From an uncultured bacterium (GTDB taxonomy: Bacteria > Krumholzibacteriota > Krumholzibacteriia > Krumholzibacteriales > Krumholzibacteriaceae): a stretch of 64,000 bases of DNA. Of the stretch, positions 1,407-48,940 are shown piece after piece. The notes below the pieces were generated by a model that searched no databases, was not told where the DNA came from, and saw only the letters and a program-made list of their open reading frames with translations. The stretch spans positions 17,775 through 81,774 of the forward strand of contig CAZPAH010000002.1 of assembly GCA_964584495.1 (NCBI GenBank). The letters run 5' to 3'. The translations under genes and the position numbers were made by a program. Position 1 is the stretch's first letter; each line of letters opens with the position of its first letter.

Positions 1407-1411
1407 ACAAG

Positions 1412-29366: not shown

Positions 29367-29426
29367 CTGTAACCACGCCTCGCCGGCGACGTACTCTTGC
29401 CCGGGAACCGGAGAAAACGCCGCGTT

Positions 29427-30110: not shown

Positions 30111-30445
30111 CAATTCATCCTCTCCGGGAAAATATCCAATAGCCCTTCGATTACGCAACAACTGCGTATCCACCCTTATCGCCCTCTCGAGATCACCCCC
30201 TCGTCATACTGCCTCCGATATAAGGTCGTCGGCCTTTATCCTAAAATATATATTTACTCGTCCGCCACAAAATAATAAAGGCCCGTAGAAATTTCCACAG
30301 TGTCCGTTGACAGTCGGCGCACCCCGCTTCCCGCTCCGTAAAATCAAGGCCTAAAAGCCGAAATCCACAGCCAACACGGCCGTTATGGAATCTCATGATC
30401 TAAGATACAGATTTTTCGGATCGATCTCAAACAAAACTTGCAGAT

Positions 30446-31704: not shown

Positions 31705-32398
31705 ATGCAGCCTCTGCGGAGGCGAAAACGAGCTACATCCAGGACAGCAGATGCTGTTTTGCGTCTACTGCGGATCCTCACTCGCGATAGGCGGCGGAGA
31801 AAAGAGCGAACATCTGATTCTCCCGCACAAGAGGAACGACCGGATCGCCGAAGAGGCCCTCCGGTCTTTCCTGGCAGGGAGGGGGCTCGCGCGTCCCCGC
31901 GAGATCGAGACCGGATTTTCCTATATCCCGTATACCACGGGCGAAGACGATAAGGGCCGCCCCGTGCTTTTGCCCGCTTCCCGAGAGGCGGATCCGACCG
32001 GCGTTCTCGCTTTTCCCCCAGCCGGCAACTACCGCTATTTCGATGAAGAGGCGGCCGGAAAAGAAACGATCGTACAGCCCGGCGGTGAAATTCCGCGCGG
32101 CGTCAAGATGCTTCATCTCCCCGTATACGAGATCTCGTACCGGGCCGGGGGTGGCAGGTGGAAAGCAGCCGTGATGGGCGAGAGCCTTTTCGTCTACGCC
32201 GACGAGTTCCCGCCGGCTCAAACCGCCCCTTTGAGCGCAACCAACATGCTCGCCGCCTCTTGTCTCTTTGTTCTTTACCTCTTCGCGGGGAGATTGGGTC
32301 ACGGCTGGGCGGGACGCCTGCTGGTGACTTCGGCGGCGGCCGCGCTCGGATTCGTCGGATTCACTATCCGCAGAAGGATATTCGATGGTAGAAGATAA
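31694..32398 (+). CDS. N-terminal zinc-ribbon protein with C-terminal membrane anchor (operon partner B)
   Basis: CSLCGG-x14-CVYCG at the N-terminus; conserved LPVYEISYR motif; C-terminal hydrophobic hairpin ([16 protein letters not shown]...[17 protein letters not shown]). Overlaps the SPFH gene by 11 nt, indicating translational coupling. Confidence 0.6.
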
Positions 32399-33431
32399 TT
32401 CAGCGGTGATCGAGACCGGGAGGCGGAATGCCTCGGTCCCCTCCGAACAAGCCGGCGGAGCTTCGCGCGAGACGATAGGAGTGAACTGCCCCTCCTGCGG
32501 GGGATCGCTCCGCCTCCACGAGGGAGAGAGAAGCCTCGAGTGCGAATACTGCGGCTCGGCCCTTTTCGTCACCTGCCCCAAGGGGGTCAAGAGATTCATT
32601 CTTCCGCCGGCGATATCAGCGGGTAAAGCGAGGATGGCCGCGCTTCATCACCTTACGGAGAAGACGAACGGCAGGGTAAAGGCCCGCCACGCCTCGATAA
32701 TCGACCTCCGCCTCATACACGTCCCCTTCTGGCGCATGCACGGCAAGCTGACCGGATGGATCGCCGGCGACATGACCAGCCAGAAGGAGGTCCAAACGGT
32801 AACGCCCACGATAAACGGAGTCCAGGTCAAGACAACCTACCAGGAGGAGAAGCATCCTTTCTCCAAGCTGATATTCAAGGAGGTCGACTGGTCGTCGCCT
32901 GCCTGCTCGGTCCGCCACCTGGGACTGCAGGGGATATCCCTCAAGGCGCGATTCCTCAAGTGGGATGTGTTCGACCATAAGATGACGGAAGAACTGAACA
33001 CCGCCCTTCCCATGAAACCGGTCCGGCGGGCCGAAAGAGAGGGGTTCCAATACCTGTCACGCCTTTCCATGCCGACCGGCTCGAACGTCCGCGGCTCGAG
33101 GTTTCACCTATTCGGCAACACCCTTTCGCTGTACTACTACCCAGTATACATCCTCCGTTACAGGCACAGGGGGATGATTCACGCGATCACCATAGACGGC
33201 GGCGACGGACGGATAATCCGTGGCGATATTCCTAAGAGGAAGCTGATAGATTCGAGATCCCTCTTTTTCATCCCAGCCGGAATCGCCTTCCTCGCGTCCA
33301 CCTGGTTTCCGCTCATTTTTATTGCCGCAGCCGGAGTATACGCCTGGGACTCTTTCCAGGCATCCGCATTCGAGCCTCCGCACAGGTGGCTGCTGGGGCG
33401 TCTCGATGACTGGTTCGGGGGTGAGATGTAG
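32385..33431 (+). CDS. N-terminal zinc-ribbon protein with C-terminal TM helix (operon partner C, paralog of B)
   Basis: CPSCGG-x14-CEYCG; shares the YPVYILRYR / LPVYEISYR motif with partner B; C-terminal TM (FFIPAGIAFLASTWFPLIFIAAAGVYAW). 14-nt overlap with the previous gene. Confidence 0.6.
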   Translation: MVEDNSAVIETGRRNASVPSEQAGGASRETIGVNCPSCGGSLRLHEGERSLECEYCGSALFVTCPKGVKRFILPPAISAGKARMAALHHLTEKTNGRVKARHASIIDLRLIHVPFWRMHGKLTGWIAGDMTSQKEVQTVTPTINGVQVKTTYQEEKHPFSKLIFKEVDWSSPACSVRHLGLQGISLKARFLKWDVFDHKMTEELNTALPMKPVRRAEREGFQYLSRLSMPTGSNVRGSRFHLFGNTLSLYYYPVYILRYRHRGMIHAITIDGGDGRIIRGDIPKRKLIDSRSLFFIPAGIAFLASTWFPLIFIAAAGVYAWDSFQASAFEPPHRWLLGRLDDWFGGEM

Positions 33432-33432
33432 G

Positions 33433-34263
33433 ATGGACGGAAAGATCGGCGTGAAGGTCCTAAGGTGCGAAGAGTGCGGAACGCCGTTGCCCGTTATGGG
33501 CAGGTTCGTGACCTTTCAGTGCCCTACCTGCTTCCGGTTTTGGATCATAAACTCCGACAGGCTGGCCCCTCTTGCCGTTTACAGAGCCCCCCTTCCCGAA
33601 GGTTACGAGGGAGATCCCCTGCTTCTCCCCTTCTGGATGATCGAGATAGAGAAGGAGGAGTTGCGTGGAAGAATAGATTCGTCGCTCGCCAGGCTCAACG
33701 AGGCAGCCATGATCATCGCCGGAAAGAGCCTTGAGGAGAGCCGGGCCCAGGTCGAGATAACTACCGGCGAGATCGAGGGAGATCCCAGCCCGGGCGCCAA
33801 AACGGCGATGATAGGCGACGCCGTGCGCGTCAAGAAATCCGTCTCGGACAGCGAGATCAATTTCCTCTTGAGAAAACTGGAAGGCCCGGGTTTCTCGTTC
33901 GTATACGTTCCGGCCTTCCATACGGTCAACGGCTTCGCCTACCTCAAGGTGGGCCGGCTTCTGACAAGGGTCCAGCCCTCGTTCAAGCCGTCAAGGGTCC
34001 AGCTGCCCGACAATCCAGTCTACTGTGCTCTGACCGCCGACGACGCCCTCTCGCTGATCGACTACGTCTTCTTCGCGACCCTTCCCGAATCGATACGGGA
34101 ATGCGCGGAAATCCTGGAGGATATAGAGCTGCGCCCCGCCTCCCCCCCCAGGCTTGTGGAATTCCCCTTCGAACAGAGGGGTGCCGACCTGAAAAGCCTT
34201 ATCGGTGATTTCAACATATCAATAAGGCTTCTCGACGGCTCGGGAAGGTCTTCGGAGGAATGA
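33433..34263 (+). CDS. N-terminal zinc-ribbon protein, soluble (operon partner D)
   Basis: CEECG-x14-CPTC at the N-terminus with the same C-x2-C-x14-C-x2-C spacing as partners B and C. No TM segments. The ATG lies 1 nt after the partner C stop. The track ORF starts earlier but overlaps partner C. Confidence 0.55.
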   Translation: MDGKIGVKVLRCEECGTPLPVMGRFVTFQCPTCFRFWIINSDRLAPLAVYRAPLPEGYEGDPLLLPFWMIEIEKEELRGRIDSSLARLNEAAMIIAGKSLEESRAQVEITTGEIEGDPSPGAKTAMIGDAVRVKKSVSDSEINFLLRKLEGPGFSFVYVPAFHTVNGFAYLKVGRLLTRVQPSFKPSRVQLPDNPVYCALTADDALSLIDYVFFATLPESIRECAEILEDIELRPASPPRLVEFPFEQRGADLKSLIGDFNISIRLLDGSGRSSEE

Positions 34264-34521: not shown

Positions 34522-36066
34522 TTGACGGAACGAACCGGCCTCGAGGAGCCCCTAAGGGAAGAGATCGCCGCGGAGCGCGAAAGCGCCACCGGTCCCATCC
34601 CCGTCCGATGCGAACCGCCGGAAGGGGCTGAGGACGGCTCACGCGTAATCAGGCGTGTCGCCAGGAACACCCTTTCGCTTACCGGAGCCAATCTCGCCAG
34701 CAGCGGCCTGACGTTCCTCGCCACAGCCTACCTGGCGCGAATCCTCACCGCCGAGGGGTTCGGGATACTCGGATTCGCCCAGGCGGCGATGACCTATTTC
34801 ACCCTCCTGATCAACATGGGGTTCGCCCATTACGGGGTGAGGGAGATCGCCCGCAGGCCGGGCGATGTCGACCGTTACGTCAACAACATCGTCACGATCA
34901 GGACCATTCTCGCCGCGGTGAGCTACGCCCTGCTCTTTCTCTTCGCCTACTCGATCTCGAAACCGTTCACAGTCAAAGCGGCGATCCTCATACTCGGCCT
35001 GAAGCTTTTCAGCCTCACCTTCAACCTCAGATGGGTCTTCCAGGGCAAGGAGAGGATGGGATGGATAGCGGTCAGCAGATTCGTCCCCCAGCTCTTTTAC
35101 GCGGCGGCCGTCTTCCTGCTGGTGGAACACCGCGAGCAGGTCCTAAGGGTTCCCGCACTGCAGGTGGCCTCGACCGCAGCGGGAACCGCCATCCTATTGG
35201 CCCTCTATCTTAGAAGCGGACGGAGGTTGAAATTCAGCATCGACATGCCGTTCTGGAGGGAAATATTCAGGCAATCCATTCCGATGGCGGCCAGCTACGT
35301 TCTCAACCAGGTCTACGTGAACTTCGACATGATCTTCCTGGGTTTCACGCATGGAGAGAAGACGGTGGGATTCTATCACGCCGCGAACAGGATCGTTCTG
35401 ACGATCAACATGTTCGGCACATATTACTTCTTCAGCCTTTTCCCGAACCTCTCGAGAATCTTCTTCGATTCGAGGGAGAAGCTCCAGGCGCTCGTATCGA
35501 ACAGCATTAAATATGTGACGATCCTTCTTTTCCCGGTTGCCGTGGGCGGAACCGTGCTCGCCGGACCGATCATACGGACGGCCTTCGGGAGCGGGTATGC
35601 GGCCAGCGTGCTGCCCCTCCAGCTTCTCATTTGGAACGTCGTCATTATAAATATACGGCAGCACTACAGCAACACGCTGATAGCCTGCAACCTTCAAAAA
35701 CGGTACATGTACTGCGCTGCCCTGGGGGCCGCGACGAACATAGTTCTGAACATGATCTTCATCCCGCGCTTCGGTATGCCCGCGGCCGCCTGCACGACGA
35801 TATTCTCCGAGCTCGTCGTCCTCGCCTCGATCCGCAGGGAAACGGGAAAGATTATAAAAACCCGTATCTGGAGGGTAATCGCCAGGCCCCTGGCGGCCTC
35901 ACTGGCGATGGGCGGTATCCTCCTGCAGACGGGAGGATGGAACATCTTCGGAAGAGTAGCGCTCGGCGCATCGGTCTACTTCCCCCTCCTGTTCCTGGTG
36001 GGAGGCCTGAGCGGAAAGGATATTCGAAGGTTGAGCAGGATCGGCCGCGAACGGAACCGGCGGTAG
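34522..36066 (+). CDS. polysaccharide biosynthesis protein / Wzx-like flippase (MOP superfamily)
   Basis: Polytopic (about 12-14 TM) protein after a roughly 50-aa cytoplasmic N-extension. Hydrophobicity pattern and length match oligosaccharide flippases of Wzx/RfbX type. Confidence 0.6.
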   Translation: MTERTGLEEPLREEIAAERESATGPIPVRCEPPEGAEDGSRVIRRVARNTLSLTGANLASSGLTFLATAYLARILTAEGFGILGFAQAAMTYFTLLINMGFAHYGVREIARRPGDVDRYVNNIVTIRTILAAVSYALLFLFAYSISKPFTVKAAILILGLKLFSLTFNLRWVFQGKERMGWIAVSRFVPQLFYAAAVFLLVEHREQVLRVPALQVASTAAGTAILLALYLRSGRRLKFSIDMPFWREIFRQSIPMAASYVLNQVYVNFDMIFLGFTHGEKTVGFYHAANRIVLTINMFGTYYFFSLFPNLSRIFFDSREKLQALVSNSIKYVTILLFPVAVGGTVLAGPIIRTAFGSGYAASVLPLQLLIWNVVIINIRQHYSNTLIACNLQKRYMYCAALGAATNIVLNMIFIPRFGMPAAACTTIFSELVVLASIRRETGKIIKTRIWRVIARPLAASLAMGGILLQTGGWNIFGRVALGASVYFPLLFLVGGLSGKDIRRLSRIGRERNRR

Positions 36067-36122: not shown

Positions 36123-37835
36123 TTGAAAACGGGAAAGGATATCGTCTCAAAATACCGCCTCTCGGCGAATGGAGATCCCGCGGCGGACGATCCCCGCCTC
36201 CGGGGACACCTCTGCAGCCGCCCGTCATACAGGGGGCCCGGCGGCCTCTGGCATCATTCGTATTTCGATGCGCTGGACGGGGGCCGCCCGGTCTACCGCT
36301 GGAACACTGGGGCCATACTGTCGGCGATCTCGTTCCACTACGCCGTCGGAGACATGACGCTCCTCGAGGAGATCCGCCGCGATCCATGGCTTTCCCGGAT
36401 CGACGAGGGCCAGGAACCCTACCTTCTCGATATCCCGCCTCACGGCCGCCGTATCGAAAAAACAGAGACGATCGCCGGGAACCTCCTGGAGAAGCTGCGC
36501 GATGAGGCGGCCGGCGCGTGCCGCGGACGCGACGATATCTATATCCTTCTGTCGGGGGGGCTCGACAGCAGGATCGTTGCCTCAACGGTCGCCCGGTTGT
36601 ACGATGAGGGCAGGATAAAAAACAGGCCGGCGGCCGTGACATGGGGTCTCGAGAATTCCCGCGACTATCAGTACGGCCGGGCCGTCGCCCGGACACTCGG
36701 GTTGGAGTGGATACACATAGATATTGGCCCCGGGACGTTGATCGAGAACATCGAGCTCTCGGCGCTCAACGGAAACCTCCTCCCCCCATCCGACCTTCAC
36801 TGCCTGTCCTGGTTCAGGCGTCTCTCTCCCGCCTCCCTCGTCCTGGCCGGCAGCTATGGCGACTCGATCGGCCGCGGCGAATACAGCGGGCAGCATCTTC
36901 TGGAGCTGAGGTATCACAATCCGTCTAACCTGTTCGGCCTGGTCCGTGCTGAGCTGTGCGCTCCGGCGGCCCGGCGGGTGGAGAAGGAGCTGACGGCGCT
37001 TCGAGGCAGAGGCGCAGGTAGACCCGTCTACGCCGTGTGCGAGCTGGAGCAGCAGGCGCATTACATGAGGGGGATGATCCATCAAGCTATCAGCATCGTA
37101 TCCTCATGGTGCGACGTCTATCAGCTTTTCACAGATCCCTCCGTCTACTCCTACATCTGGTCGATCCACCCATCGCTCAGGGGAAACGCTATCTACGCCT
37201 CACTTCTTGAGCTTTTGGATCGACGCCTCGCCCGTATCCCCTGGGCCAGAACCAACCGGGCCATGAGTGGGAAAACCGTCGGGAGGCTCGGAGGTCTACA
37301 AAAAGAGTTTCACAACTACTCCGATTGGATAAGCGGGGAGCTTTACAAGCGGATATCGGAGTATGTCGATCCCGCCTGGTTCGCCTCCACCGGAATCTTC
37401 AACGGGGACAAGGTCGAGCGGCTGGGGGCACGCCTCTCGCCCGGCCGTGCGGGAGGAGAAGGCGGATCTTTCAAACCGTACAGCGTCTACCTCTGGCTCG
37501 CCGCCTTCAGGAGATTCGCCGAGCTGTGCGGGGAGCGGGGCAAGACGCTCGAGCTTTCTGAGGAAAGGGACAAAGCCTGCCCGAGCGCCCTGCTCGATCA
37601 TCCTCCCGACGACAGGTCCTTCCTGAGAAAGGTTATCGGCAGGTCCAGGAAGGCCAGGGAGCTCAGGCGCAAGTTTCGAAGGGTACGTCTTAAAAAACGG
37701 GCGCTGAAGGAGTTCCCTCCCGAACCGGACGACGGGCGGCTCCACGGGGAAACGTGGAACGGAGCGACCGCCCCGGGAAAAGACCTAAGTCCCGGAATAG
37801 AAAAGACTAAAGTCCCTGTTTCAGGATCCGAATAG
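36123..37835 (+). CDS. asparagine-synthetase-domain protein lacking the N-terminal glutaminase domain
   Basis: PP-loop motif LSGGLDSRIVAS of the AsnB synthetase (ATP pyrophosphatase) domain, but the N-terminus has no Cys-2 Ntn glutaminase signature (MCG). Followed by a full-length AsnB paralog. Confidence 0.55.
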   Translation: MKTGKDIVSKYRLSANGDPAADDPRLRGHLCSRPSYRGPGGLWHHSYFDALDGGRPVYRWNTGAILSAISFHYAVGDMTLLEEIRRDPWLSRIDEGQEPYLLDIPPHGRRIEKTETIAGNLLEKLRDEAAGACRGRDDIYILLSGGLDSRIVASTVARLYDEGRIKNRPAAVTWGLENSRDYQYGRAVARTLGLEWIHIDIGPGTLIENIELSALNGNLLPPSDLHCLSWFRRLSPASLVLAGSYGDSIGRGEYSGQHLLELRYHNPSNLFGLVRAELCAPAARRVEKELTALRGRGAGRPVYAVCELEQQAHYMRGMIHQAISIVSSWCDVYQLFTDPSVYSYIWSIHPSLRGNAIYASLLELLDRRLARIPWARTNRAMSGKTVGRLGGLQKEFHNYSDWISGELYKRISEYVDPAWFASTGIFNGDKVERLGARLSPGRAGGEGGSFKPYSVYLWLAAFRRFAELCGERGKTLELSEERDKACPSALLDHPPDDRSFLRKVIGRSRKARELRRKFRRVRLKKRALKEFPPEPDDGRLHGETWNGATAPGKDLSPGIEKTKVPVSGSE

Positions 37836-37877: not shown

Positions 37878-39860
37878 ATGTGCGGCATAGCCGGTATATT
37901 TCATCTCGACCCCAGAGCCGAAGCGGACCGGTCCCTCCTCGCCGGGATGACCGATATCCTCGCCCACAGGGGCCCGGACGACAGCGGGCTCTACGTTGAC
38001 GGCCGGATCGGTCTCGGCCACAGGAGGCTCTCCATAATCGACCTGCGGACCGGTCAGCAGCCGATGTCGTCGAACGACCGCACCGTCTGGCTCGTTCTCA
38101 ACGGGGAGATATACAATTTCAAGGAACTGAGGCGCGAGCTGAGATCGTTCGGCCACGCGTTCCGGACCAGATCGGATACTGAGGTTGTAATTCAGGCCTA
38201 TAACCAGTGGGGAACCGGTTTCCTTGGGAAGATGAACGGCATGTTCGCCCTCGCCCTCTGGGATTGCAGCCGGTCCCGCCTCGTGCTGGCGAGGGACCGC
38301 CTTGGAATCAAGCCTCTCTACACGACCGTCGCGGGAAACGCCCTCCTATTCGCCTCCGAGATCAAGTCGCTGCTCCGATACCCCGGCGTGCGCCGCGAAC
38401 CCGATCCCGAATCGATCTCCGCCTATCTCGGATTCAGGTGCCCGCTCGGCGACAAGACTCTTTTCAAGAAGATAGAAAAGCTGAGCCCGGGACACATGCT
38501 GGTCGCCGAGAACGGCTACCTATCCAAAATATCGTACTGGGAGCTTCCCCTCGATGGAAAGCGGAAGGACCGAGGCGAGGAATACTACGTCAAAAAGATC
38601 CGGTCACTTCTGAAGCGCTCTGTGAGGCGGAGGATGATCAGCGACGTTCCGATCGGCGCATACCTCAGCGGGGGCCTCGACAGCTCGATCATAGTGTCCC
38701 TAATGGCCGGCATGAGCCGGTCCCCCGTGAAGACCTACACGATAGGATTCGAGGAGGAGGGATACAACGAGCGCCGGTACGCCCGGTTGGCGGCCGACAT
38801 GTACGGCACCGACCACCGGGAGATCCTGCTGGGCGACGACGATTACACGAGCCTGATCCCCGAGCTGATCCGCTTCAAGGACGCCCCCCTTTCGGTGGCG
38901 AACGAGATACCGCTCTACGTGATGTCGAGGGAGCTGAAGAAGGATATCACCGTCGTCCTGTCCGGAGAGGGGGCCGACGAGCTGTTCGCCGGCTACGGCC
39001 GTATATTCAGATCTCCATTCGACTACGAGAGGGCCCTCTTCCTTGAAACCGACACCGAGATCCTTCCGCAATACAGGGAAACCCTCCTGTCACGGGTCGA
39101 GGATATATACGGCACCCGCTCCTTCCTGAACGAGCTGGTCCACTTCATGAAAAAGTACAGATGGATGAGTCCCGCCGACAAGGGGATATTCCTCTCACAG
39201 CCCCTTCTCGATTCGATCAACGGGGACGAGAGGGCGCTGGGCTACTTCGCCTCCCAGATGAAGGACGCCATGCATCTGAACCACTACGAAAAGCTTCTCT
39301 ACATCTTCCAGAAAACTCATCTCGAGAACCTCCTAATGCGGGTCGACATGACCACGATGGCTGCATCGGTCGAGGCACGAGTGCCCTTCGTCGACCACGA
39401 ATTGGTCGAGTTCGTTTTCACGATGCCATTCCATTACAAGATCAGATGGAAGAGCGATCTCCACAAGCTGATGGCCGCTTTTCTGGCGAGCGACGAGATC
39501 AGCGAAAAATTCGATACACCTAAATACATACTGAGAAGATCATTCTCCTCCGACCTGCCAGAAGAGATACTGACCCGCCGGAAGATGGGATTCCCCGTCC
39601 CGTTGGACCGGTGGATGGGAGGCGGGTATGCCCTGTTCATGAGGGAGATTCTTCTCGACGGGCGGACGCGCCGAAGGGGGATGTTCAATATCGGTTCGGT
39701 CGAGAAACAGCTGGGCCGCGCAGAGGAACATGACCACGGAACGGCCCTCAAGCTCTGGATGCTTATGAACCTGGAGCTTTGGTTCAGGGAGTATATAGAT
39801 AAACCGGAAGGGGGAAAGGTTTCTGCCGGCCGCGGCCCCGAGCTCGCCGCGGCCGTCTGA
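37878..39860 (+). CDS. asparagine synthase (glutamine-hydrolysing) family amidotransferase
   Basis: Starts MCGIAGIF (catalytic Cys2 of the class-II glutamine amidotransferase), RLSIIDL, PP-loop YLSGGLDSSIIVS. 660 aa, typical of AsnB-like enzymes that sit in polysaccharide loci. Confidence 0.8.
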   Translation: MCGIAGIFHLDPRAEADRSLLAGMTDILAHRGPDDSGLYVDGRIGLGHRRLSIIDLRTGQQPMSSNDRTVWLVLNGEIYNFKELRRELRSFGHAFRTRSDTEVVIQAYNQWGTGFLGKMNGMFALALWDCSRSRLVLARDRLGIKPLYTTVAGNALLFASEIKSLLRYPGVRREPDPESISAYLGFRCPLGDKTLFKKIEKLSPGHMLVAENGYLSKISYWELPLDGKRKDRGEEYYVKKIRSLLKRSVRRRMISDVPIGAYLSGGLDSSIIVSLMAGMSRSPVKTYTIGFEEEGYNERRYARLAADMYGTDHREILLGDDDYTSLIPELIRFKDAPLSVANEIPLYVMSRELKKDITVVLSGEGADELFAGYGRIFRSPFDYERALFLETDTEILPQYRETLLSRVEDIYGTRSFLNELVHFMKKYRWMSPADKGIFLSQPLLDSINGDERALGYFASQMKDAMHLNHYEKLLYIFQKTHLENLLMRVDMTTMAASVEARVPFVDHELVEFVFTMPFHYKIRWKSDLHKLMAAFLASDEISEKFDTPKYILRRSFSSDLPEEILTRRKMGFPVPLDRWMGGGYALFMREILLDGRTRRRGMFNIGSVEKQLGRAEEHDHGTALKLWMLMNLELWFREYIDKPEGGKVSAGRGPELAAAV

Positions 39861-39876
39861 GGGGAGCCTGAATAAG

Positions 39877-40620
39877 ATGAGAGTAATAATACTGGCGGCG
39901 GGAAAGGGAGAACGGCTCTATCCGTTGACGAAAAACAGCCCCAAGAGCCTTCTTGAGCTTGGCGGGGGCAAAACCGTTCTGGAAAGCCAGCTCGAGCATA
40001 TCGCCACGGTGGGGATCGGCGATGTGACAATCGTCACCGGATACAAGACGGAACAGATCGAAGCCAAGGTTCTCGGTTTCGACGGTCTCGAAATCACGAT
40101 CTGCTATAATCCTTTCTTCTCGACGAGCAACAACCTGATATCGGCCTGGCTGGCGATCCGGGAAACGGGGGAAAACTTCGTGCTAGTCAACGGAGACGAC
40201 GTATTCAAGGTCCACGTGCTCTCGGGGCTGCTCGAATCGAAAAACGATATCACCATGGTGATAGACCGCAAGGAGGAGTACGACTCCGACGACATGAAGG
40301 TAATCACACGCGGCGGAAGAATCCTGGAAGTAAGCAAGGAGATCGATCCGGCCAGGGCCGACGGAGAATCGATCGGGATGATCCTATTCAGGGGAAAGGG
40401 CCGAACGATCATCAGGGAGACGCTGGAGAGGATGGTCCGCAGGGATGAAGCCAAGAATATCTTCTACCTGGCCGCCCTCCAGGAGATCATGAACATGGGC
40501 TTCCCGGTGAACTACCATGAATGCTCGCGGGAAGACTGGGCGGAGATCGATTTCCATTCGGATCTTTCATTCATCCGCTCACGGATAGACAGATACGCGG
40601 CCGATATAGTGAACGTATGA
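39877..40620 (+). CDS. sugar-/alcohol-phosphate cytidylyltransferase-like nucleotidyltransferase (IPCT/LicC-like)
   Basis: MRVIILAAGKGERLYPLTKNSPKSLLELGG is the G-x-G-x-R-L nucleotide-binding loop of small nucleotidyltransferases. 247 aa. Confidence 0.6.
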   Translation: MRVIILAAGKGERLYPLTKNSPKSLLELGGGKTVLESQLEHIATVGIGDVTIVTGYKTEQIEAKVLGFDGLEITICYNPFFSTSNNLISAWLAIRETGENFVLVNGDDVFKVHVLSGLLESKNDITMVIDRKEEYDSDDMKVITRGGRILEVSKEIDPARADGESIGMILFRGKGRTIIRETLERMVRRDEAKNIFYLAALQEIMNMGFPVNYHECSREDWAEIDFHSDLSFIRSRIDRYAADIVNV

Positions 40621-40633
40621 TGAAAGGACGGCG

Positions 40634-41398
40634 ATGGAATCGATAGCCGAGCTCCGCGCGCTGTGCCGCAGGGAGAACGACGAGGACAACCGCAAGACGA
40701 TGTTCCTCGCATCGAGGGTCTCGATCTATTTCACCCGGCTCTTCCTTATGATGAATATGTCGGCGAATCAGGTCACCTATCTCTTCATCGTTCTCGGCAT
40801 CGCCGGGTCATTTTCGTTTCTCGGCCCAGGCCCATACTGGGCCCTCGCGGGCTACATACTGATGAGACTACACGTGATCGCCGATGTCTGCGACGGCGAG
40901 GTGGCCAGGTACAGACGCACCTTCAGCTCCACCGGCGCCTACCTCGATTTTCTGACCCATTACCTGGTCTACGGGATCGTGCTGTTCGCCATTCCGCTGA
41001 GGTGCTACATGGATTTCGGCCGTTTCTGGAGCGTGACGGCGGGGTTCGTCCTGGTGCTCTCGAACACGATGAACAGGGCTTCGGTCGATTGCTGGTTCAG
41101 GGCCAACTTCGGCAAAAAGGGAAGAGACGAAATCGAAGAGGGTGGACCGGGCCGCAAGAGGAGTTCCCTCTCCCGCTGGAGAAAGACGGCCGTACTCCTT
41201 GCTTCCCACTCGACGAGCCTCCAGACCTTTCTCAACTTCTATATCGCCGCGGTCATCCTGGAAAGGCTGTTGGCGCTTGATCTCCGTCTGTACCTGATCC
41301 CGGCCTACGCGGCGGCCCTCTCCCTGTTCACCTCGGCCAGGATAGCGCTTACGATAGCGCGGGGGAGGATCCCGCGCAGGGCGACGTACTATTCATGA
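40634..41398 (+). CDS. CDP-alcohol phosphatidyltransferase family protein (DIPPS-like)
   Basis: DVCDGEVARYRRTFSSTGAYLDFL fits D-x2-DG-x2-AR-x8-G-x3-D. The N-terminal helix NMSANQVTYLFIVLGIAGSFSFL resembles di-myo-inositol-phosphate-phosphate synthase-type enzymes. Follows the nucleotidyltransferase by 13 nt. Confidence 0.6.
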   Translation: MESIAELRALCRRENDEDNRKTMFLASRVSIYFTRLFLMMNMSANQVTYLFIVLGIAGSFSFLGPGPYWALAGYILMRLHVIADVCDGEVARYRRTFSSTGAYLDFLTHYLVYGIVLFAIPLRCYMDFGRFWSVTAGFVLVLSNTMNRASVDCWFRANFGKKGRDEIEEGGPGRKRSSLSRWRKTAVLLASHSTSLQTFLNFYIAAVILERLLALDLRLYLIPAYAAALSLFTSARIALTIARGRIPRRATYYS

Positions 41399-41410: not shown

Positions 41411-42631
41411 TTGAACGGCGCCGGATCGAAAAAGGAGAACCGTTCCCCGATGTCAACCGGCACGGACAGTAACCATGGAACTATCGAGGATATCCTCGAT
41501 CGGATAGAGGAAGTCGCCCGTACCGGCGAGGACCGGCTGGCGGATACCAGGATATGCAGGATAGCCTCCTTTCCGACGAGGGAGTTTCCGGGGAGCGGCC
41601 TTCCCGGCTACTACCTCTGCAAAAATATCAAGGGCCCCACCCTCTTTCTCACGAGAAAGACGGGGGAGCCGGTGGACGTCCCCCCCCACGTCGATCTGAG
41701 GATGATCGATCACTCGAGCCCGCTTCTCGGAGAGAAGATCGATCCATTGAAGGCGGCATCGAAACTTCCCGGCCTTATGAAGTTCTTTCTCTCTACGGTA
41801 AGGCCGATGACCCGCTTCAAACCCGAGATCGTTCATATTCACTCTCCCCTGTACATCCTTCACGCCGTCTGGGCGAAATTCATACTCGGCTCGCGCGTGT
41901 GCATGACCTTCCACGGCTCCGACCTTCTGAGGATAAAGAGATCGAGGATCCTTCAGAAGCTTCTTCCGTGCCTCGTCGATCTCTTCTTCTATGTATCCCC
42001 ATCGATGGCCGCCGACCTGGCGCAATTCATCCCCGTCTCGAGAATGATTCATACTCCCAACGGCGTCGATCTCGATAATTTCAACGACCGGAACCTAAAG
42101 AGGGAGAAGCGGATCGTGGCAGTCGGAAACCTGAGGTGGCAGAAAGGATACGAGTATCTGCTCGACGCTTTCGCCTCGCTCGACGCCCCCGGTTATTCCC
42201 TCGCCGTTCTGGGGGACGGCCCCCTGAGAGACGCCATGGAAAAAAGGATCGAAAAGCTTGGAATGGAAGACCGCATATTCCTCCCGGGAAGAAAGAGCCA
42301 CGAGGAGATCGCCTATCTCCTGAACAGGAGCGAGATCTTCGTAATGTCATCGGTTTCCGAGGGGTTTCCGAAGGCGCTCGTGGAAGCTATCGCATCGGGC
42401 CTTCCCGTTGTGACGACCGATGTCGGCTGCTGCCGTGAGCTGACCGGCGAGGCGGGCATCTGCGTCGCACCCGGCGACGCTGACGCGCTGGCGGCGGCGC
42501 TCGCCAGGCTTATCGACGACGGCGATCTCAGAAAGGGATTTTCCAGGAAAGCATCGGAGTCGGCCGTCAAGTACGGATGGGAAAAACCGTGCGAAACCGT
42601 AAGAGAAGCGTACGAAAAAATCGTATCCTGA
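41411..42631 (+). CDS. glycosyltransferase family 1 (GT4)
   Basis: C-terminal EGFPKALVEAIASGLPVVTTDVGCCRELTGEAGICV motif of GT4 enzymes. Confidence 0.7.
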   Translation: MNGAGSKKENRSPMSTGTDSNHGTIEDILDRIEEVARTGEDRLADTRICRIASFPTREFPGSGLPGYYLCKNIKGPTLFLTRKTGEPVDVPPHVDLRMIDHSSPLLGEKIDPLKAASKLPGLMKFFLSTVRPMTRFKPEIVHIHSPLYILHAVWAKFILGSRVCMTFHGSDLLRIKRSRILQKLLPCLVDLFFYVSPSMAADLAQFIPVSRMIHTPNGVDLDNFNDRNLKREKRIVAVGNLRWQKGYEYLLDAFASLDAPGYSLAVLGDGPLRDAMEKRIEKLGMEDRIFLPGRKSHEEIAYLLNRSEIFVMSSVSEGFPKALVEAIASGLPVVTTDVGCCRELTGEAGICVAPGDADALAAALARLIDDGDLRKGFSRKASESAVKYGWEKPCETVREAYEKIVS

Positions 42632-42811: not shown

Positions 42812-43417
42812 GTGAAAAAGGGTTATCTTGTAGCCATCGTTCTTTCGGCGCTGCTGATCCTGCCGGTATCGGGCAGCCGCGCGGAGTCGTTCCTAGACGA
42901 AGTGACTTTCGGAGCCGACGCGGGGCTCTCTATGCCGATGGGTAACTCGGGCGATCTGTACAGCATGGGTTTCGTGGTCGGGGTCAACGGATTCTATCCC
43001 TACAGGGAGAACATCCTGATAGGCGGGCGCATCGCCTACAACAGGTGGGGAATCGACAGCGGCGGCTGGGTCGGCAGCAATGTCGACGGCTCCTCCTCGG
43101 TAATGGAGTTCGTGCCGCAGGTCCGGTACCTCTTCCCCACGGAAGAAGGAAAAACGATGAGCTTCTTCGGGCAGGGCGGACTGGGATTCTACAGGTACGC
43201 TTTCAATGTCGACGTCGAAAACGATCTGCCCCTCGTGGGAGTTCAAAAATACAGCTACGATGATTCGGCCGTGAATCTCGGGCTCTGTTTCGGCGGGGGA
43301 GCTCTATTTGAGCAAGGCTCCGGAAGGGTCTGGGAAGTGAGACCGATGATTCATATGGTTTTTACGGAGGGGGAATCCACGACCTTCCTTTCCCTGACGG
43401 TCGGAACCACGTTCTGA
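42812..43417 (+). CDS. small outer-membrane beta-barrel protein
   Basis: Signal peptide MKKGYLVAIVLSALLILPVSGSRA. Alternating beta-strand pattern. C-terminal ...LSLTVGTTF with terminal Phe. 201 aa (8-stranded barrel size). Confidence 0.55.
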   Translation: MKKGYLVAIVLSALLILPVSGSRAESFLDEVTFGADAGLSMPMGNSGDLYSMGFVVGVNGFYPYRENILIGGRIAYNRWGIDSGGWVGSNVDGSSSVMEFVPQVRYLFPTEEGKTMSFFGQGGLGFYRYAFNVDVENDLPLVGVQKYSYDDSAVNLGLCFGGGALFEQGSGRVWEVRPMIHMVFTEGESTTFLSLTVGTTF

Positions 43418-43442: not shown

Positions 43443-44234
43443 TTGATGCGAAGAATATTGCCGTTGCTCGCCGCGATCCTCATTGCGGCGGGCGGCGTGT
43501 GGGAAGTTCGGGCGGCCATAGAGCCGCCCGATTCAATCTCTGTCGAAGCAGGGGGAGAAAACGTCCGGGTGAGGGCCGTCGATTCAATTTTCTCCATCTC
43601 CGCGCGGCGGAAAGCCGGTAGGGAAGAGATCGGCTGGTATGTGTCCCTTTTCCGCCTTCTTAACGGAAGGGCGGCCAACCCCGTCTTCGACGCGATCATG
43701 CCCCCTATCACCGATTTCAGAAGATCCAGGATCTTCGTGCTCGTCGCCTGGTCCGCCCTCGTGATATTCGGGGGAAGAAAGGGACGCTGGGCCGCTTTCA
43801 TGTTGATACCGCTTATCGTCGCTTCGGATCAGATATCCTCATCCCTGCTGAAACCTCTCGTAGCGAGGATGCGCCCCTGCGAGGTTCTGGGAAATGTGCG
43901 CCTATGGCACGGCTCGGAGGGTTGGATCGTCACTCCGGCCGATATATCCGGAAGCTACAAGTCGTCGTTCTCCTTTCCATCTAGCCACGCAACCAACATC
44001 ACGGCGGCGATGCTCTTTCTGGGATTGGTCTACAGGAGACTGCTGGTGCCGCTTCTCGTCTTGGCCCTCGCCGTATCGTACTCTAGAATCTACGTGGGGG
44101 TTCACTGGCCCCTTGACGTGGCGGCCGGGATGGCTATAGGCGGATCGCTTGCCGTGATCGCTTGGCTGATTTTCAAAAAACTTGCAGGTACGGCGGCGAA
44201 CGGCCGTACGGCGAAGAGCGGCGGCGGAATCTGA
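43443..44234 (+). CDS. PAP2-superfamily membrane phosphatase
   Basis: Acid-phosphatase motifs KPLVARMRP (KxxxxxxRP), PSSHA (PSGH) and SRIYVGVHWPLD (SRxxxxxHxxxD). Confidence 0.7.
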   Translation: MMRRILPLLAAILIAAGGVWEVRAAIEPPDSISVEAGGENVRVRAVDSIFSISARRKAGREEIGWYVSLFRLLNGRAANPVFDAIMPPITDFRRSRIFVLVAWSALVIFGGRKGRWAAFMLIPLIVASDQISSSLLKPLVARMRPCEVLGNVRLWHGSEGWIVTPADISGSYKSSFSFPSSHATNITAAMLFLGLVYRRLLVPLLVLALAVSYSRIYVGVHWPLDVAAGMAIGGSLAVIAWLIFKKLAGTAANGRTAKSGGGI

Positions 44235-47353: not shown

Positions 47354-48940
47354 ATGGGAAAGAGCTACAGCCGCGAACTCTACGTGAATCAGACCTTTCT
47401 GGCTGCCGCCGTCATCTTTCTCGCTCTATCCGTTCGAATACTTCACGTGATTTTCACGGCCAAGCTCAACCCCCTCGCCTTCGACCTGGCCGTCGATGCC
47501 GCCGGTTACGACAGGTGGGCCAAGGCCCTAGTCTGGGGCGGAGAGCCGGGACATACGACCCTGATGCAGGCGCCCCTTTTCCCATGGTTCCTCGCCGTCA
47601 TATACCGCGTCTTCGGCCCTTCCCTCACGGCGGTCCGCCTCGTCCACGCCCTTCTAGGCACCTTCACGTGCGGATTCATAATCGCAATAACCAGAAGATT
47701 GTTCCGATCTTCAGCCGCGGGGATAGTGGCCGGAGCGGCGATGGCCCTCTACCTCCCCGCGATATTCTACGAGGGTGTCCTAGTCCCCGCGACTCTGATT
47801 CTTTTCCTCGACTCATCCTTCCTCATGCTCATGGTGCCGGAAAAGAGACCTGTCGGCAACCGGTCCGTTTTTCTGGCGGGGGCGGTTCTGGGTCTTTCGA
47901 TCCTAGCGAAACCGATCGCCATTATCCTTTTCCCCTTCGCCGTTCTCCATCTTTTTTTCAATCTAGGGATGAAGAGGGTGCCTGCCGGCCCCATAGCCGG
48001 GAACGGGCGGGGAAGAAGCTGGATGCCGCAATTTGCCTCAAAATCGGCCCTTCTCGCGGCGGGGATGATCGTTGCGATACTCCCGCTGACGATACGCAAC
48101 GCAAAAATCACTGGAGAATTCCTGCCGCTGACCACTGGGGGCGGCATCAACTTCTATATAGGAAACAACCCCAGGGCAAACGGATATTATGCCGTTCCCG
48201 AGTACAGGGGCAGATCGCTGGGAGGAACCCCCGAGAGACAGAAAACGATGATGTACCGGCTCGCCCGGGCCGAGTCCGGAAGAAAGCTCTCGCACTCGGA
48301 AGTTTCGGGTTTCTGGCTGAATAAGGGGATCGAGTTCTGCCGGAGGGAGCCGGGGCGCTGCGCAACGCTGGTATGGAACAAGTTCATATTCTTCTGGAAC
48401 CGTCACGAAAGGGCCAATGTCGAATCGCTCTACTTTCATAGACGTTTCGGCGGGATCCTATCCCTTCCCCTCGTCGGCTTCGGTCTTTTGGCTCCGTTCG
48501 GATTGCTGGGATTGCTCACATCAAGCAGCCGCTGGAAGAGCCTGATTCTTCTTTACGGTGGAGTCGCCGCCTACCTGGGCGCCGCCCTCGTATTCTACGT
48601 CCTGGCACGTTACCGCCTGCCGGTGGTTCCTTTCCTAGCCCCTTTCGCCGGTATCGGGGTGATAGACCTGCTGAAATCGATACGTAACAGGGAGCGGGCG
48701 GCCGCCGGCCTGAGGATCGCCGTTCTTTTTCTCCTCTTCTATTTCGTCAATATGAGGGTCTCCTCGGAAACGACCGAGGGGACCGCGGCGAACCTCGTGC
48801 GCCTTGGAAGGGTATACGAGGGGCAGGGGCAACTGGAGAAGGCCCGCACCGCCTACAGGGAATCCCTAGAGCTCGACCGGAAAAACAAGGCGGCCCGAGC
48901 CGGCCTTAAGTCCGTCTCGACGAAAGAGAAGCTCCAATAA
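47354..48940 (+). CDS. GT39/GT83-like (PMT/ArnT-family) membrane glycosyltransferase with C-terminal TPR repeats
   Basis: N-terminal polytopic domain with an acidic first loop (FDLAVDAAGYDRWAKA) like the ArnT/PMT DE-motif region. C-terminal soluble TPR (LVRLGRVYEGQGQLEKARTAYRESLELDRKN). Confidence 0.6.
   Translation: MGKSYSRELYVNQTFLAAAVIFLALSVRILHVIFTAKLNPLAFDLAVDAAGYDRWAKALVWGGEPGHTTLMQAPLFPWFLAVIYRVFGPSLTAVRLVHALLGTFTCGFIIAITRRLFRSSAAGIVAGAAMALYLPAIFYEGVLVPATLILFLDSSFLMLMVPEKRPVGNRSVFLAGAVLGLSILAKPIAIILFPFAVLHLFFNLGMKRVPAGPIAGNGRGRSWMPQFASKSALLAAGMIVAILPLTIRNAKITGEFLPLTTGGGINFYIGNNPRANGYYAVPEYRGRSLGGTPERQKTMMYRLARAESGRKLSHSEVSGFWLNKGIEFCRREPGRCATLVWNKFIFFWNRHERANVESLYFHRRFGGILSLPLVGFGLLAPFGLLGLLTSSSRWKSLILLYGGVAAYLGAALVFYVLARYRLPVVPFLAPFAGIGVIDLLKSIRNRERAAAGLRIAVLFLLFYFVNMRVSSETTEGTAANLVRLGRVYEGQGQLEKARTAYRESLELDRKNKAARAGLKSVSTKEKLQ

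What the first reader, a model, noticed from the sequence alone, without database searches (positions are those of the whole stretch)
39877..41398. IPCT/DIPPS-like gene pair (cytidylyltransferase plus CDP-alcohol phosphatidyltransferase) inside a glycan locus
The nucleotidyltransferase (GKGERL loop) is followed after 13 nt by a CDP-alcohol phosphatidyltransferase whose motif (DVCDGEVAR-x8-G-x3-D) and N-terminal helix resemble di-myo-inositol-phosphate-phosphate synthase rather than phospholipid synthases. In hyperthermophiles this pair makes the osmolyte di-myo-inositol phosphate. Here, flanked by AsnB-type amidotransferases and GT4 genes, it may instead attach a phospho-alcohol head group (inositol, glycerol or similar) to a glycan or lipid. 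The third motif Asp appears replaced by His, which is unusual.
Basis: partly seen in the sequence, partly recalled or inferred. Interest (0 to 1): 0.6.

Follow-up and report, generated by a model that had tools for sequence, protein, structure and literature searches.

The report
Phospho-alcohol transfer cassette in glycan operon
Two adjacent genes that first load a small phosphorylated alcohol onto CDP and then transfer it to a membrane-bound acceptor sit in a surface-polysaccharide operon; the transferase belongs to a large, unstudied branch of its enzyme family in which the usual catalytic aspartate is always a histidine.

Summary
A 247-aa LicC/IPCT-type cytidylyltransferase (39877-40620) lies 13 nt upstream of a 254-aa CDP-alcohol phosphotransferase (40634-41398). 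The transferase motif is D84xxD87GxxAR-x8-GxxxD105xxxH109.

Both genes sit in a tight operon: Wzx, AsnB-like, AsnB, NTase, CDP-OH, GT4. The host is a Krumholzibacteriota/Latescibacteria-type MAG.

The pair is related to IPCT/DIPPS but is not a member. Scores are 50 and 33 bits against a 580-bit cut-off. The nearest solved relatives are LicC and AF2299.

The His is not a one-off. It marks a large uncharacterised clade of at least 480 clusters at 50% identity, with His in 158 of 163 motif-bearing sequences. That clade lives in glycopolymer loci.

Close NTase relatives usually follow an AsnB gene. They are followed either by a His-type CDP-OH enzyme or by a TagF-like transferase.

Best reading (about 0.5): a Kennedy-like activation and transfer of a phospho-alcohol onto a lipid-linked glycan, not osmolyte synthesis. 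The identity of the alcohol and of the acceptor is unresolved. This is a new variant of a known kind, of moderate to high interest.

The parts
34522..36066 (+). Wzx/MOP-family flippase, first gene of the operon
   Evidence: PF01943 1.8e-45 and NF041871 Wzx_EPS 2e-20. A 60% identical gene sits at the same position in L002.
36123..37835 (+). AsnB-like PP-loop adenylating enzyme with no glutaminase domain
   Evidence: PF00733 3e-8 over residues 122-294 only. No PDB relative at E<=0.01. Seen only in the Krumholzibacteriota-type relative L002.
37878..39860 (+). Glutamine-dependent AsnB-type amidotransferase, 16 nt upstream of the NTase
   Evidence: PF00733 3.8e-90 and GATase_7 4e-48; TIGR01536 499.9 bits, above its 267 cut-off; TIGR03108 504.7 bits, below its 817 cut-off. 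An AsnB lies immediately upstream of the NTase in 31 of 68 metagenomic loci.
39877..40620 (+). LicC/PntC/IPCT-type phospho-alcohol cytidylyltransferase (NTase)
   Evidence: Pfam results. PDB hits: LicC 4.7e-13 for the single sequence and 4.7e-27 for the family profile. R13, K23 and D107 are invariant; they align with the GKRL, PK and GD motifs of T. maritima IPCT, whose catalytic residues are R16, K26 and D112 (PMC12275187).
40621..40633 (+). 13-nt spacer with an AAGGA ribosome-binding site, indicating translational coupling of the pair
   Evidence: Sequence read.
40634..41398 (+). His-type CDP-alcohol phosphotransferase with a six-TM fold
   Evidence: PF01066 7.9e-8. AF2 model pLDDT 86. Foldseek best match AF2299, E 3.5e-6. 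Profile against PDB.
40883..40960 (+). Signature D84xxD87GxxAR92-x8-G101xxxD105xxxH109 (D4 replaced by His)
   Evidence: H109 is invariant in 21 homologues down to 22% identity. His is present in 80 of 80 genome loci and in 158 of 163 motif-bearing sequences.
41411..42631 (+). GT4 glycosyltransferase, 12 nt downstream of the CDP-OH gene
   Evidence: PF00534 7.5e-38. The position directly after the CDP-OH gene is conserved in L001, L002, L005, L089 and L158. Nearest solved relatives are MshA, BshA and PimA.
42812..43417 (+). 201-aa signal-peptide protein with no family match; possibly part of the locus
   Evidence: No Pfam or NCBIfam hit. A 53% identical gene is at the same place in L002.
43443..44234 (+). 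PAP2 lipid-phosphate phosphatase, undecaprenyl-diphosphatase-like; possibly for carrier-lipid recycling
   Evidence: PF01569 4.4e-22; NF047884 SepP 72 bits, below cut-off. Conserved in L002.

Best explanation
The pair forms the last two steps of a Kennedy-like branch inside a surface-polysaccharide operon. The soluble NTase condenses CTP with a small phosphorylated alcohol X-P to give CDP-X. The six-TM enzyme, at the cytoplasmic face of the inner membrane, transfers X-phosphate from CDP-X to a hydroxyl of a membrane-bound acceptor and releases CMP. The acceptor is most probably a lipid-linked glycan intermediate. D84, D87 and D105 would hold the metal, and H109 would replace the usual Asp as general base. 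The GT4 then extends the intermediate, or glycosylates X itself, and Wzx flips it outward. The AsnB encoded directly upstream probably acts on X or on CDP-X, for example by amidating a carboxyl group.

Shown: gene structure, family placement, the clade-wide His, conserved gene order, and interchange with TagF-like enzymes.

Inferred: the chemistry, the identity of X, the acceptor, and the role of AsnB. X may be glycerol phosphate or phosphoglycerate/glyceramide; inositol phosphate looks unlikely.
For: 1. Family placement in the CDP-alcohol-donor branch. AF2299, the closest relative, binds CDP-glycerol (PMC4634129). The NTase groups with phospho-alcohol cytidylyltransferases.
2. Coupling of the two genes. 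They are 13 nt apart. NTase then His-type CDP-OH are adjacent in L001, L002, L005 and L089 and in 7 more metagenomic loci. In P0100 the two domains are fused in one protein.
3. Glycan context. The order Wzx, AsnB, NTase, CDP-OH, GT4 is conserved in L002. In L089 the order AsnB, NTase, CDP-OH, GT4 sits inside a Wza/Wzz/Wzy locus. Neighbours of His-type genes in 24 dereplicated genomes are GT2, TagG/H-type ABC transporters, GT4, TagF-like and LCP genes.
4. Non-orthologous displacement. In L093 and at least 14 AsnB-NTase loci a TagF-like glycerophosphotransferase homologue takes the place of the CDP-OH enzyme. P0074 fuses a TagF-like domain to a His-type domain.
5. Seven of the eight signature residues are kept and the His is invariant, which argues for an active enzyme.
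6. No gene for making X-P is present in the cassettes, so X-P is probably a central metabolite. CpgD shows that this NTase family can use 2- or 3-phosphoglycerate (PMC12275187).
Against: There is no biochemical evidence for any member of the His-type clade. The six-TM architecture is the one reported for enzymes with soluble acceptors (PMC4634129), so a soluble phosphodiester product is not excluded. A His-type/HAD-phosphatase fusion (P0171) points to a phosphorylated small acceptor in at least some members. CDP-OH enzymes have not been shown to act on glycans. No initiating phosphoglycosyl transferase was found near any of about 90 loci; this fits a priming role as well as a decorating one. 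AsnB could simply amidate a uronic acid of the polymer. The gene calls in fetched loci are my own simple ORF calls.
Confidence: 0.5

Rival explanations
1. Kennedy-type phospholipid synthesis. CDP-X plus diacylglycerol (or ceramide) gives a phospholipid with head group X. The GT4 then glycosylates the head group, as PimA does for phosphatidylinositol, and the MOP flippase moves the glycophospholipid outward.
For: Lipid synthesis is the usual job of PF01066 enzymes. A similar NTase plus CDP-OH pair has been proposed for a CDP-inositol route to inositol lipids in Bacteroides vulgatus (PMC9246714). The nearest solved relatives of the GT4 include PimA and MshA. A PAP2 lipid phosphatase lies nearby. 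P0088 fuses a choline-kinase-like APH domain to a His-type domain.
Against: The protein has only six TM helices, whereas enzymes with lipid acceptors typically carry 3-4 extra helices (PMC4634129). TagF-like enzymes replace it in otherwise equivalent cassettes. The cassette sits in Wza/Wzz/Wzy and TagGH loci. The GT4 match to PimA/MshA covers mainly the donor-binding C-terminal half.
Confidence: 0.2
2. Priming enzyme. The His-type enzyme transfers X-phosphate to a polyprenyl phosphate, or another lipid primer, and so starts the polymer in place of a WecA/WbaP-type initiating transferase. His would replace Asp because a phosphate nucleophile needs binding rather than deprotonation.
For: No WecA or WcaJ homologue (tblastn E<1e-3) is in the window or in about 90 related loci, although these carry Wzx, Wzy, GT and TagGH genes. 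In about 30 actinobacterial loci a canonical D-type paralogue sits beside the His-type gene, suggesting two different acceptor types. P0074 fuses a TagF-like domain to a His-type domain, resembling a primase plus polymerase. A PAP2 gene is nearby.
Against: There is no precedent for a phosphate acceptor in this family. Initiating transferases are often encoded elsewhere in the genome. The tblastn test used two E. coli queries and has limited sensitivity. No lipid groove could be evaluated.
Confidence: 0.12
3. Soluble phosphodiester solute synthesis, as in hyperthermophiles: di-myo-inositol phosphate, diglycerol phosphate or glycero-phospho-inositol. CDP-X plus a phospho-alcohol gives a diester phosphate that is then dephosphorylated.
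For: The proteins are homologous to IPCT/DIPPS and AF2299. The fold is the six-TM type used with soluble acceptors (PMC4634129). P0171 fuses a His-type domain to a HAD phosphatase. One close relative carries a source name (4484_7) that I recall as Guaymas Basin hydrothermal sediment; this is from memory, not checked.
Against: Scores are far below the IPCT/DIPPS cut-off. No inositol-1-phosphate synthase, phosphatase or kinase is in the operon or the window. The genes are co-operonic with Wzx, GT4 and AsnB and conserved inside exopolysaccharide loci. D4 is replaced.
Confidence: 0.07
4. The two genes are neighbours only. The NTase makes an NDP-sugar for the GT4, and the CDP-OH protein is a housekeeping phospholipid synthase or an inactive relic.
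For: NCBIfam lists many sugar-1-P nucleotidyltransferase models among weak NTase hits. The catalytic D4 is missing.
Against: The NTase profile ranks LicC, PntC and IPCT well above sugar-1-P enzymes. A fused NTase/His-type protein exists and adjacency recurs across lineages. The His is invariant over a clade of at least 480 clusters, which is not the pattern of decay. PgsA and PssA are the most distant relatives.
Confidence: 0.05

Closest known systems
AF2299 of Archaeoglobus fulgidus (PDB 4o6m/4o6n/4q7c), a CDP-alcohol phosphotransferase that binds CDP-glycerol
   Same: It is the best sequence match (5e-9 single sequence, 2.6e-22 profile) and the best fold match (Foldseek E 3.5e-6). It shares the six-TM core, a juxtamembrane N-terminal helix, the CDGE(I/V)AR motif and a soluble CDP-alcohol donor (PMC4634129).
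   Different: AF2299 keeps D4 and carries a fused cytidylyltransferase-like N-terminal domain (PMC4634129). It is archaeal and its physiological reaction is not established. Identity to the window protein is only about 19-20%.
Bifunctional IPCT/DIPPS (NF041135; PDB 4mnd), which makes di-myo-inositol-phosphate phosphate
   Same: It uses the same two enzyme superfamilies in the same order, cytidylyltransferase then CDP-alcohol phosphotransferase, and the same two-step logic.
   Different: It is one fused protein there and two genes here. Scores are 50 and 33 bits against a 580-bit cut-off. D4 is present there and is His here. It makes an osmolyte, whereas this pair sits in a glycan operon; no MIPS is seen here.
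LicC plus LicD (phosphocholine decoration of teichoic acid and LPS)
   Same: LicC is the closest solved relative of the NTase. Both systems make a CDP-alcohol and then transfer the phospho-alcohol to a glycan. A sister clade of the NTase is encoded next to LicD genes.
   Different: LicD has an unrelated fold. NTase relatives that follow an AsnB gene are never found with LicD (0 of 31 loci). No choline kinase or transporter is present here.
TagD/TagF (TarF, TarB) CDP-glycerol glycerophosphotransferases of wall teichoic acid
   Same: They are functional analogues. TagF-like genes occupy the position of the CDP-OH gene in equivalent AsnB-NTase cassettes, and one protein fuses a TagF-like domain to a His-type domain.
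   Different: TagF is a peripheral GT-B-like enzyme unrelated to PF01066. TagD is a different cytidylyltransferase fold (PF01467).
CpgD (CCNA_01210) of Caulobacter, a phosphoglycerate cytidylyltransferase
   Same: It belongs to the same LicC/IPCT-like NTase family. Its substrate is a glycolytic intermediate, so no dedicated precursor gene is needed (PMC12275187). This gives a precedent for a carboxyl-bearing X that an AsnB could amidate.
   Different: I could not compare the sequences, because CpgD is not in the collections I could read. Its product goes onto a sphingolipid through CpgA, whose activity is undetermined (PMC12275187).
Bacteroides vulgatus-type NTase / CDP-alcohol phosphatidyltransferase / HAD cluster proposed for CDP-inositol-dependent inositol lipid synthesis (PMC9246714)
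   Same: It is a bacterial, unfused pair of NTase plus CDP-OH gene, and its function is likewise only predicted.
   Different: That cluster lies next to MIPS and a HAD hydrolase and was found with the canonical DX2DGX2AR...GX3DX3D motif. Here there is no MIPS and no HAD; AsnB, GT4 and Wzx are present and D4 is His.

Membership tests
IPCT/DIPPS (NF041135, bifunctional inositol-1-P cytidylyltransferase / DIPP synthase) | Whole-protein HMM score at or above the curated cut-off (580 bits) | tested here: not met
   The NTase scores 50.2 bits and the CDP-OH protein 32.8 bits.
IPCT/DIPPS | Complete signature D1xxD2GxxAR...GxxxD3xxxD4 with D4 as catalytic base | tested here: not met
   Seven of eight residues are present and D4 is H109. 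A D4-to-Asn change abolishes activity in a PIP synthase (PMC4634129).
IPCT/DIPPS | A supply of L-myo-inositol-1-phosphate (MIPS gene in the genome or neighbourhood) | tested here: inconclusive
   No MIPS domain was found among about 58 window ORFs scanned. The rest of the genome is not available.
CDP-alcohol phosphotransferase superfamily (Pfam PF01066) | Pfam gathering threshold, and a six-TM fold with the active site on TM2-TM3 | tested here: met
   33.3 bits against 22. The AF2 model (pLDDT 86) has six long helices after a juxtamembrane helix. Foldseek probability is 1.00 to AF2299, PIPS, PgsA1 and DIPPS.
Phospholipid synthases PgsA / PssA (CDP-diacylglycerol donors) | HMM score above cut-off, or closest relationship to these enzymes | tested here: not met
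   TIGR00473 pssA scores 21.4 bits against 107, and there is no PgsA hit. Profile against PDB gives PSS 1.8e-4 and PgsA 0.36, against AF2299 2.6e-22.
LicC/PntC/IPCT-type phospho-alcohol cytidylyltransferases (PF00483/PF12804 fold) | Pfam thresholds, catalytic Arg/Lys/Asp, and closer to LicC, PntC and IPCT than to sugar-1-P enzymes | tested here: met
   46.9 and 42.6 bits. R13, K23 and D107 are invariant and align with the catalytic motifs of T. maritima IPCT (PMC12275187). Profile E-values are 5e-27, 6e-21 and 1e-18 against 1e-15 or weaker for the others.
LicC proper (CTP:phosphocholine cytidylyltransferase) | Phosphocholine as substrate; companion choline kinase/transporter and LicD | tested here: inconclusive
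   No LicA, LicB or LicD is in the window. AsnB-associated NTases form clades separate from the LicD-associated clade. Substrate specificity cannot be read from sequence with these tools.
TagF/LicD glycan phospho-alcohol transferases | Homology to PF04464 or PF04991 | tested here: not met
   The window CDP-OH protein matches only PF01066. The relationship is one of analogy (same slot in the cassette), not homology.

The most novel reading that the evidence does not exclude
The conserved trio AsnB, LicC-like NTase and an interchangeable phosphotransferase installs a previously unassigned, amide-bearing phospho-substituent on surface glycans. One candidate route starts from 2- or 3-phosphoglycerate, proceeds through CDP-glycerate and AsnB amidation, and gives glyceramide phosphate, a substituent known chemically from the Providencia alcalifaciens O22 antigen. 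In this reading the His-type CDP-alcohol phosphotransferases are a fourth, membrane-embedded class of glycan or glycopolymer phosphotransferases alongside TagF, LicD and LtaS/EptA types. In Actinobacteria, paired with a glycerol-1-phosphate-dehydrogenase-like gene, a canonical D-type/DUF5941 paralogue and TagGH, they could be the missing LtaS-independent route to poly(glycerol phosphate) polymers.
Probability: 0.25. Interest if true: 0.8.

Novelty: new variant of a known kind. Interest (0 to 1): 0.6.

Why it matters
CDP-alcohol phosphotransferases are textbook phospholipid synthases defined by eight 'absolutely conserved' residues (PMC4634129). This finding points to a large, taxonomically broad branch that breaks that rule at the catalytic base. 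The branch has at least 480 clusters at 50% identity. It spans Krumholzibacteriota and Latescibacteria relatives, many Actinomycetota, WOR-3, a Rubrivirga MAG and Patescibacteria. It is wired into polysaccharide and teichoic-acid-like loci rather than lipid synthesis.

If these enzymes act on glycans or prime glycopolymers, three things follow:
- A new enzyme class is added to glycan phosphodiester chemistry.
- The frequent AsnB/NTase gene pair in environmental polysaccharide loci gets an explanation.
- There is a concrete candidate for how Actinobacteria that lack LtaS make lipoteichoic-acid-type polymers, an open question noted in PMC3196553.

Members occur in tractable genera (Streptomyces, Curtobacterium, Leifsonia), so the idea can be tested directly.

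Tried and rejected
- Looked for MIPS, G1P dehydrogenase, PEP mutase, choline kinase and WecA/WbaP-type initiating transferases in the window. None was found (Pfam on about 58 ORFs; tblastn).
- Tried to name X from annotation. Source names for NTase relatives are inconsistent nearest-match labels ('phosphocholine cytidylyltransferase family', 'choline kinase', 'L-glutamine-phosphate cytidylyltransferase'), so I rejected them as evidence.
- Literature searches for DUF5941, for a His variant of the signature, and for the Providencia O22 gene cluster found nothing useful.
- The promoter and terminator scan gave no more sites than shuffled sequence.
- The GT4's similarity to MshA and PimA was considered as a hint for inositol. 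I set it aside because the match covers mainly the donor-binding half.
- The AsnB-like 570-aa protein has no solved relative.
It therefore says nothing about the frequency of the cassette in Krumholzibacteriota.
Full report
**1. What is in the sequence**

They are separated by 13 nt that contain an AAGGA ribosome-binding site.

- The first protein passes the Pfam thresholds for NTP_transferase and NTP_transf_3 and carries the AAGKGERL loop.
- The second passes the threshold for CDP-OH_P_transf (33.3 bits against 22).
- Its motif reads D84-VC-D87-GEVAR92, eight residues, G101-AYL-D105-FLT-H109.
- The final Asp of the family signature is therefore His. In the eight-residue notation this is D4.

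The pair is the fourth and fifth gene of a co-directional block with short gaps of 12 to 56 nt:

| Coordinates | Gene |
|---|---|
| 34522-36066 | Wzx flippase |
| 36123-37835 | AsnB-like protein without a glutaminase domain |
| 37878-39860 | full AsnB |
| 39877-40620 | NTase |
| 40634-41398 | CDP-OH transferase |
| 41411-42631 | GT4 |
| 42812-43417 | 201-aa protein with no family match |
| 43443-44234 | PAP2 phosphatase |

Promoter and terminator consensus scans found no more sites than shuffled sequence, so they neither divide nor confirm the operon.

Close homologues carry the source names 'Candidatus Krumholzibacteriota' and 'Latescibacteria'. A Krumholzibacteriota genome, L002, has the same gene order with 51-77% identical proteins.

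**2. Where the two proteins belong**

*The CDP-OH protein.*
- The best solved relative is AF2299 (E 5e-9), followed by IPCT/DIPPS (1e-3).
- A profile of 21 homologues sharpens the ranking: AF2299 2.6e-22, IPCT/DIPPS 8e-12, PIP synthases 7e-6 to 5e-5, PS synthase 2e-4, CHPT1 1e-3, PgsA 0.36.
- An AlphaFold model (pLDDT 86, pTM 0.85) has a juxtamembrane helix and six long helices.
- Foldseek gives the same order of relatives.

*The NTase.*
- Its family profile ranks LicC 5e-27, the AEP cytidylyltransferase PntC 6e-21 and T. maritima IPCT 1e-18.
- Sugar-1-phosphate enzymes score 1e-15 or weaker.
- R13, K23 and D107 are invariant. They align with the catalytic motifs of T. maritima IPCT, whose catalytic residues are R16, K26 and D112 (PMC12275187).

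Membership of IPCT/DIPPS fails, however. Scores are 50 and 33 bits against a 580-bit cut-off. D4 is absent. No inositol-1-phosphate synthase is among the roughly 58 window ORFs scanned.

**3. The histidine marks a clade**

- H109 is invariant in 21 homologues down to 22% identity.
- A profile search of 1.84 billion representative proteins found 480 clusters at E<=1e-30.
- Across all 178 proteins fetched carry a recognisable motif, and 158 of those have His at D4.
- All 80 genome loci retrieved with the motif have His. They are mostly Actinomycetota such as Agromyces, Curtobacterium, Leifsonia, Cryobacterium, Streptomyces and Brevibacterium, plus WOR-3 and a Rubrivirga MAG (Rhodothermota, by my own knowledge of the genus). 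For three further loci, from Planctomycetota, Omnitrophota and an uncultured bacterium, the motif was not located by my pattern.
- About 30 of these loci also carry a canonical paralogue ending in Asp, 1-3 kb upstream. In the seven such paralogues scanned it is fused to DUF5941.

In PIP synthase, D1-D3 bind the metal, D4 is the proposed catalytic base, and a D4-to-Asn change abolishes activity (PMC4634129). An invariant His with the other seven residues intact suggests an active enzyme. The His may take over the base role or reflect a different acceptor or donor. NCBIfam has no model for this clade, and I found no paper on it.

**4. Context of the His-type clade**

Neighbours in 24 dereplicated genomes were GT2 (15 proteins), ABC-2 permeases (10) and ABC ATPases (9), DUF5941/CDP-OH (7), NTP_transf_3 (7), GT4 (6), TagF-like (3) and LCP ligases (2). 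This is the profile of cell-wall glycopolymer loci.

Individual loci:
- L003: GT2, His-type, GT2, TagF-like, ABC transporter, NTase.
- L004: Wzx, acetyltransferase, RtcB, His-type, Wzy, two GT4s.
- L006 (Patescibacteria): GT4s, TagF-like, His-type, an NTase/DHQ-synthase-like/SDR fusion, and a kinase.
- Streptomyces L085: D-type/DUF5941, a LicC-like NTase (33% identical to the window's), a glycerol-1-phosphate-dehydrogenase-like protein (231 bits, below cut-off), His-type, and a TagG-like permease.

A 2026 survey lists the Streptomyces synteny among orphan genes linked to teichoic acid (PMC13118837).

Fusion proteins link the His-type domain to a LicC/IspD-like NTase (P0100), a choline-kinase-like APH kinase (P0088), a TagF-like domain (P0074), a HAD phosphatase (P0171) and a D-type domain (P0136).

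**5. Context of the NTase**

Relatives at 52-62% identity are far more numerous than close relatives of the CDP-OH protein.

- In L089 the order is AsnB, NTase, a 247-aa His-type CDP-OH, GT4, inside a Wza/Wzz/Wzy locus.
- In L093 the order is GT2, GT4, AsnB, NTase, TagF-like, methyltransferase, GT4, Wzx. This is the same kind of cassette with a TagF-like enzyme in the CDP-OH slot.

A scan of metagenome contigs gave 79 loci that carry the NTase, analysed:
- AsnB lies immediately upstream in 31 of the 68 loci where an upstream gene is visible.
- TagF-like genes are in 36 loci, LicD in 23 and CDP-OH in 20.
- Loci with AsnB directly upstream of the NTase contain TagF-like (14) or CDP-OH (5) genes but never LicD (0).

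A neighbour-joining tree separates one LicD/TagF-associated NTase clade from all the AsnB-associated clades, which include the window's protein. Apart from L159, L127 and L162, CDP-OH genes in the AsnB-associated clades are His-type. Those in the LicD clade have the canonical Asp. Other frequent neighbours are GT2, SAM methyltransferases, GT4 and, in three loci, glycerophosphodiester phosphodiesterases.

**6. Interpretation**

The evidence favours a Kennedy-like branch of glycan assembly:
1. X-P plus CTP gives CDP-X (NTase).
2. X-phosphate is transferred from CDP-X to a membrane-bound acceptor (His-type enzyme).
3. The product is glycosylated (GT4) and flipped (Wzx).

TagF-like enzymes, which transfer polyol phosphates onto lipid-linked glycans, replace the CDP-OH enzyme in equivalent cassettes. 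That is the strongest argument that the acceptor is a glycan intermediate.

AsnB is the most constant partner of the NTase, so it probably acts on X or on CDP-X. AsnB homologues that amidate nucleotide-activated uronic acids (WbpS and WbtH types) are my own recollection, not tested here.

No gene for making X-P occurs in the cassettes, so X-P should be a common metabolite. My rough, unquantified ranking is:
- Glycerol phosphate. AF2299 binds CDP-glycerol (PMC4634129); TagF-like and GDPD genes are neighbours; a G1P-dehydrogenase-like gene occurs in actinobacterial relatives.
- Phosphoglycerate, perhaps amidated to glyceramide phosphate. CpgD is a precedent (PMC12275187). D-glyceramide 2-phosphate exists on an O-antigen, cited in PMC6222762.
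- Phosphocholine or phosphoethanolamine.
- Inositol phosphate.

None of these could be tested with the tools available.

**7. Alternatives**

- *Phospholipid head-group synthesis* (0.2) remains possible. It is weakened by the six-TM architecture, which lacks the extra helices of lipid-acceptor enzymes (PMC4634129), and by the TagF interchange.
- *A priming role on polyprenyl phosphate* (0.12) is suggested by three things: no WecA/WbaP homologue in any of about 90 loci, the D-type/His-type paralogue pairs, and the TagF-like/His-type fusion. It has no precedent.
- *Osmolyte-type diester synthesis* (0.07) and *chance adjacency* (0.05) fit the context poorly.

**8. Verdict**

The finding is a new variant of a known kind. 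It is a member of a large uncharacterised His-type clade of CDP-alcohol phosphotransferases, embedded in a recurrent module of AsnB, NTase and phosphotransferase in polysaccharide loci. Interest is 0.6.

Noticed in passing
L085:4438-9737 (Streptomyces); similar in L061, L067, L070, L072, L078, L079, L086: The gene order is: canonical D-type CDP-OH fused to DUF5941, LicC-like NTase, glycerol-1-phosphate-dehydrogenase-like Fe-ADH_2, His-type CDP-OH, TagG-like permease, lying directly upstream of hopanoid genes. This could be an LtaS-independent route to poly(glycerol phosphate) polymers in Actinobacteria, an open question in PMC3196553.
   Followed up: partly
P0100, P0088, P0171, P0074, P0136 (representative proteins): Natural fusions join the His-type CDP-OH domain to a LicC/IspD-like NTase, an APH (choline-kinase-like) kinase, a HAD phosphatase, a TagF-like domain, and a D-type CDP-OH domain, respectively.
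   Followed up: partly
L095-L174 (metagenome loci around NTase relatives): AsnB lies immediately upstream of the NTase in 31 of 68 loci. LicD never co-occurs with that arrangement. CDP-OH genes in the LicD-associated clade keep the canonical Asp, whereas most of those beside AsnB-type NTases have His.
   Followed up: yes
L004:4424-5848 and L004:10482-12695: An RtcB-family gene sits directly upstream of a His-type CDP-OH gene inside a Wzx/Wzy glycan locus. A PPDK_N/PEP-utiliser protein is in the same locus; from memory, its architecture resembles the Campylobacter glutamine kinase Cj1418.
   Followed up: no
L006:9747-12410 (Patescibacteria): An 887-aa triple fusion of NTP_transferase, a DHQ-synthase-like domain and a short-chain dehydrogenase lies next to an APH kinase, a NUDIX protein and a His-type CDP-OH. 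It looks like a self-contained route to an unusual CDP-activated polyol or cyclitol.
   Followed up: no
window 30547-34263: An SPFH/Band_7 protein with three C-terminal zinc ribbons is followed by three genes with essentially no family match. The same four genes precede the Wzx gene in L002.
   Followed up: no
window 12-2452 (-), 11489-12559 (+), 26808-30173 (-), 47354-48940 (+): Further glycan genes are scattered through the window: Wzy_C plus a GNVR/Wzz-like protein, a GT4, a polysaccharide deacetylase plus GT4 plus an outer-membrane beta-barrel, and a PMT_2/ArnT-like GT-C enzyme with TPR repeats. No initiating phosphoglycosyl transferase was found anywhere in the window.
   Followed up: partly
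window 21004-22272; 5768-6766; 6830-7447: Three unusual domain combinations: an aldo/keto reductase with a C-terminal 4Fe-4S dicluster domain, a rubrerythrin fused to a SpoIIE phosphatase, and a rubredoxin-like domain fused to a flavin reductase.
   Followed up: no
window 39434-40030 (-), 40663-41280 (+), 40868-41209 (-): Long ORFs overlap the two genes in other frames or on the other strand. They have no family support and are typical of GC-rich DNA, so they are not genes.
   Followed up: partly
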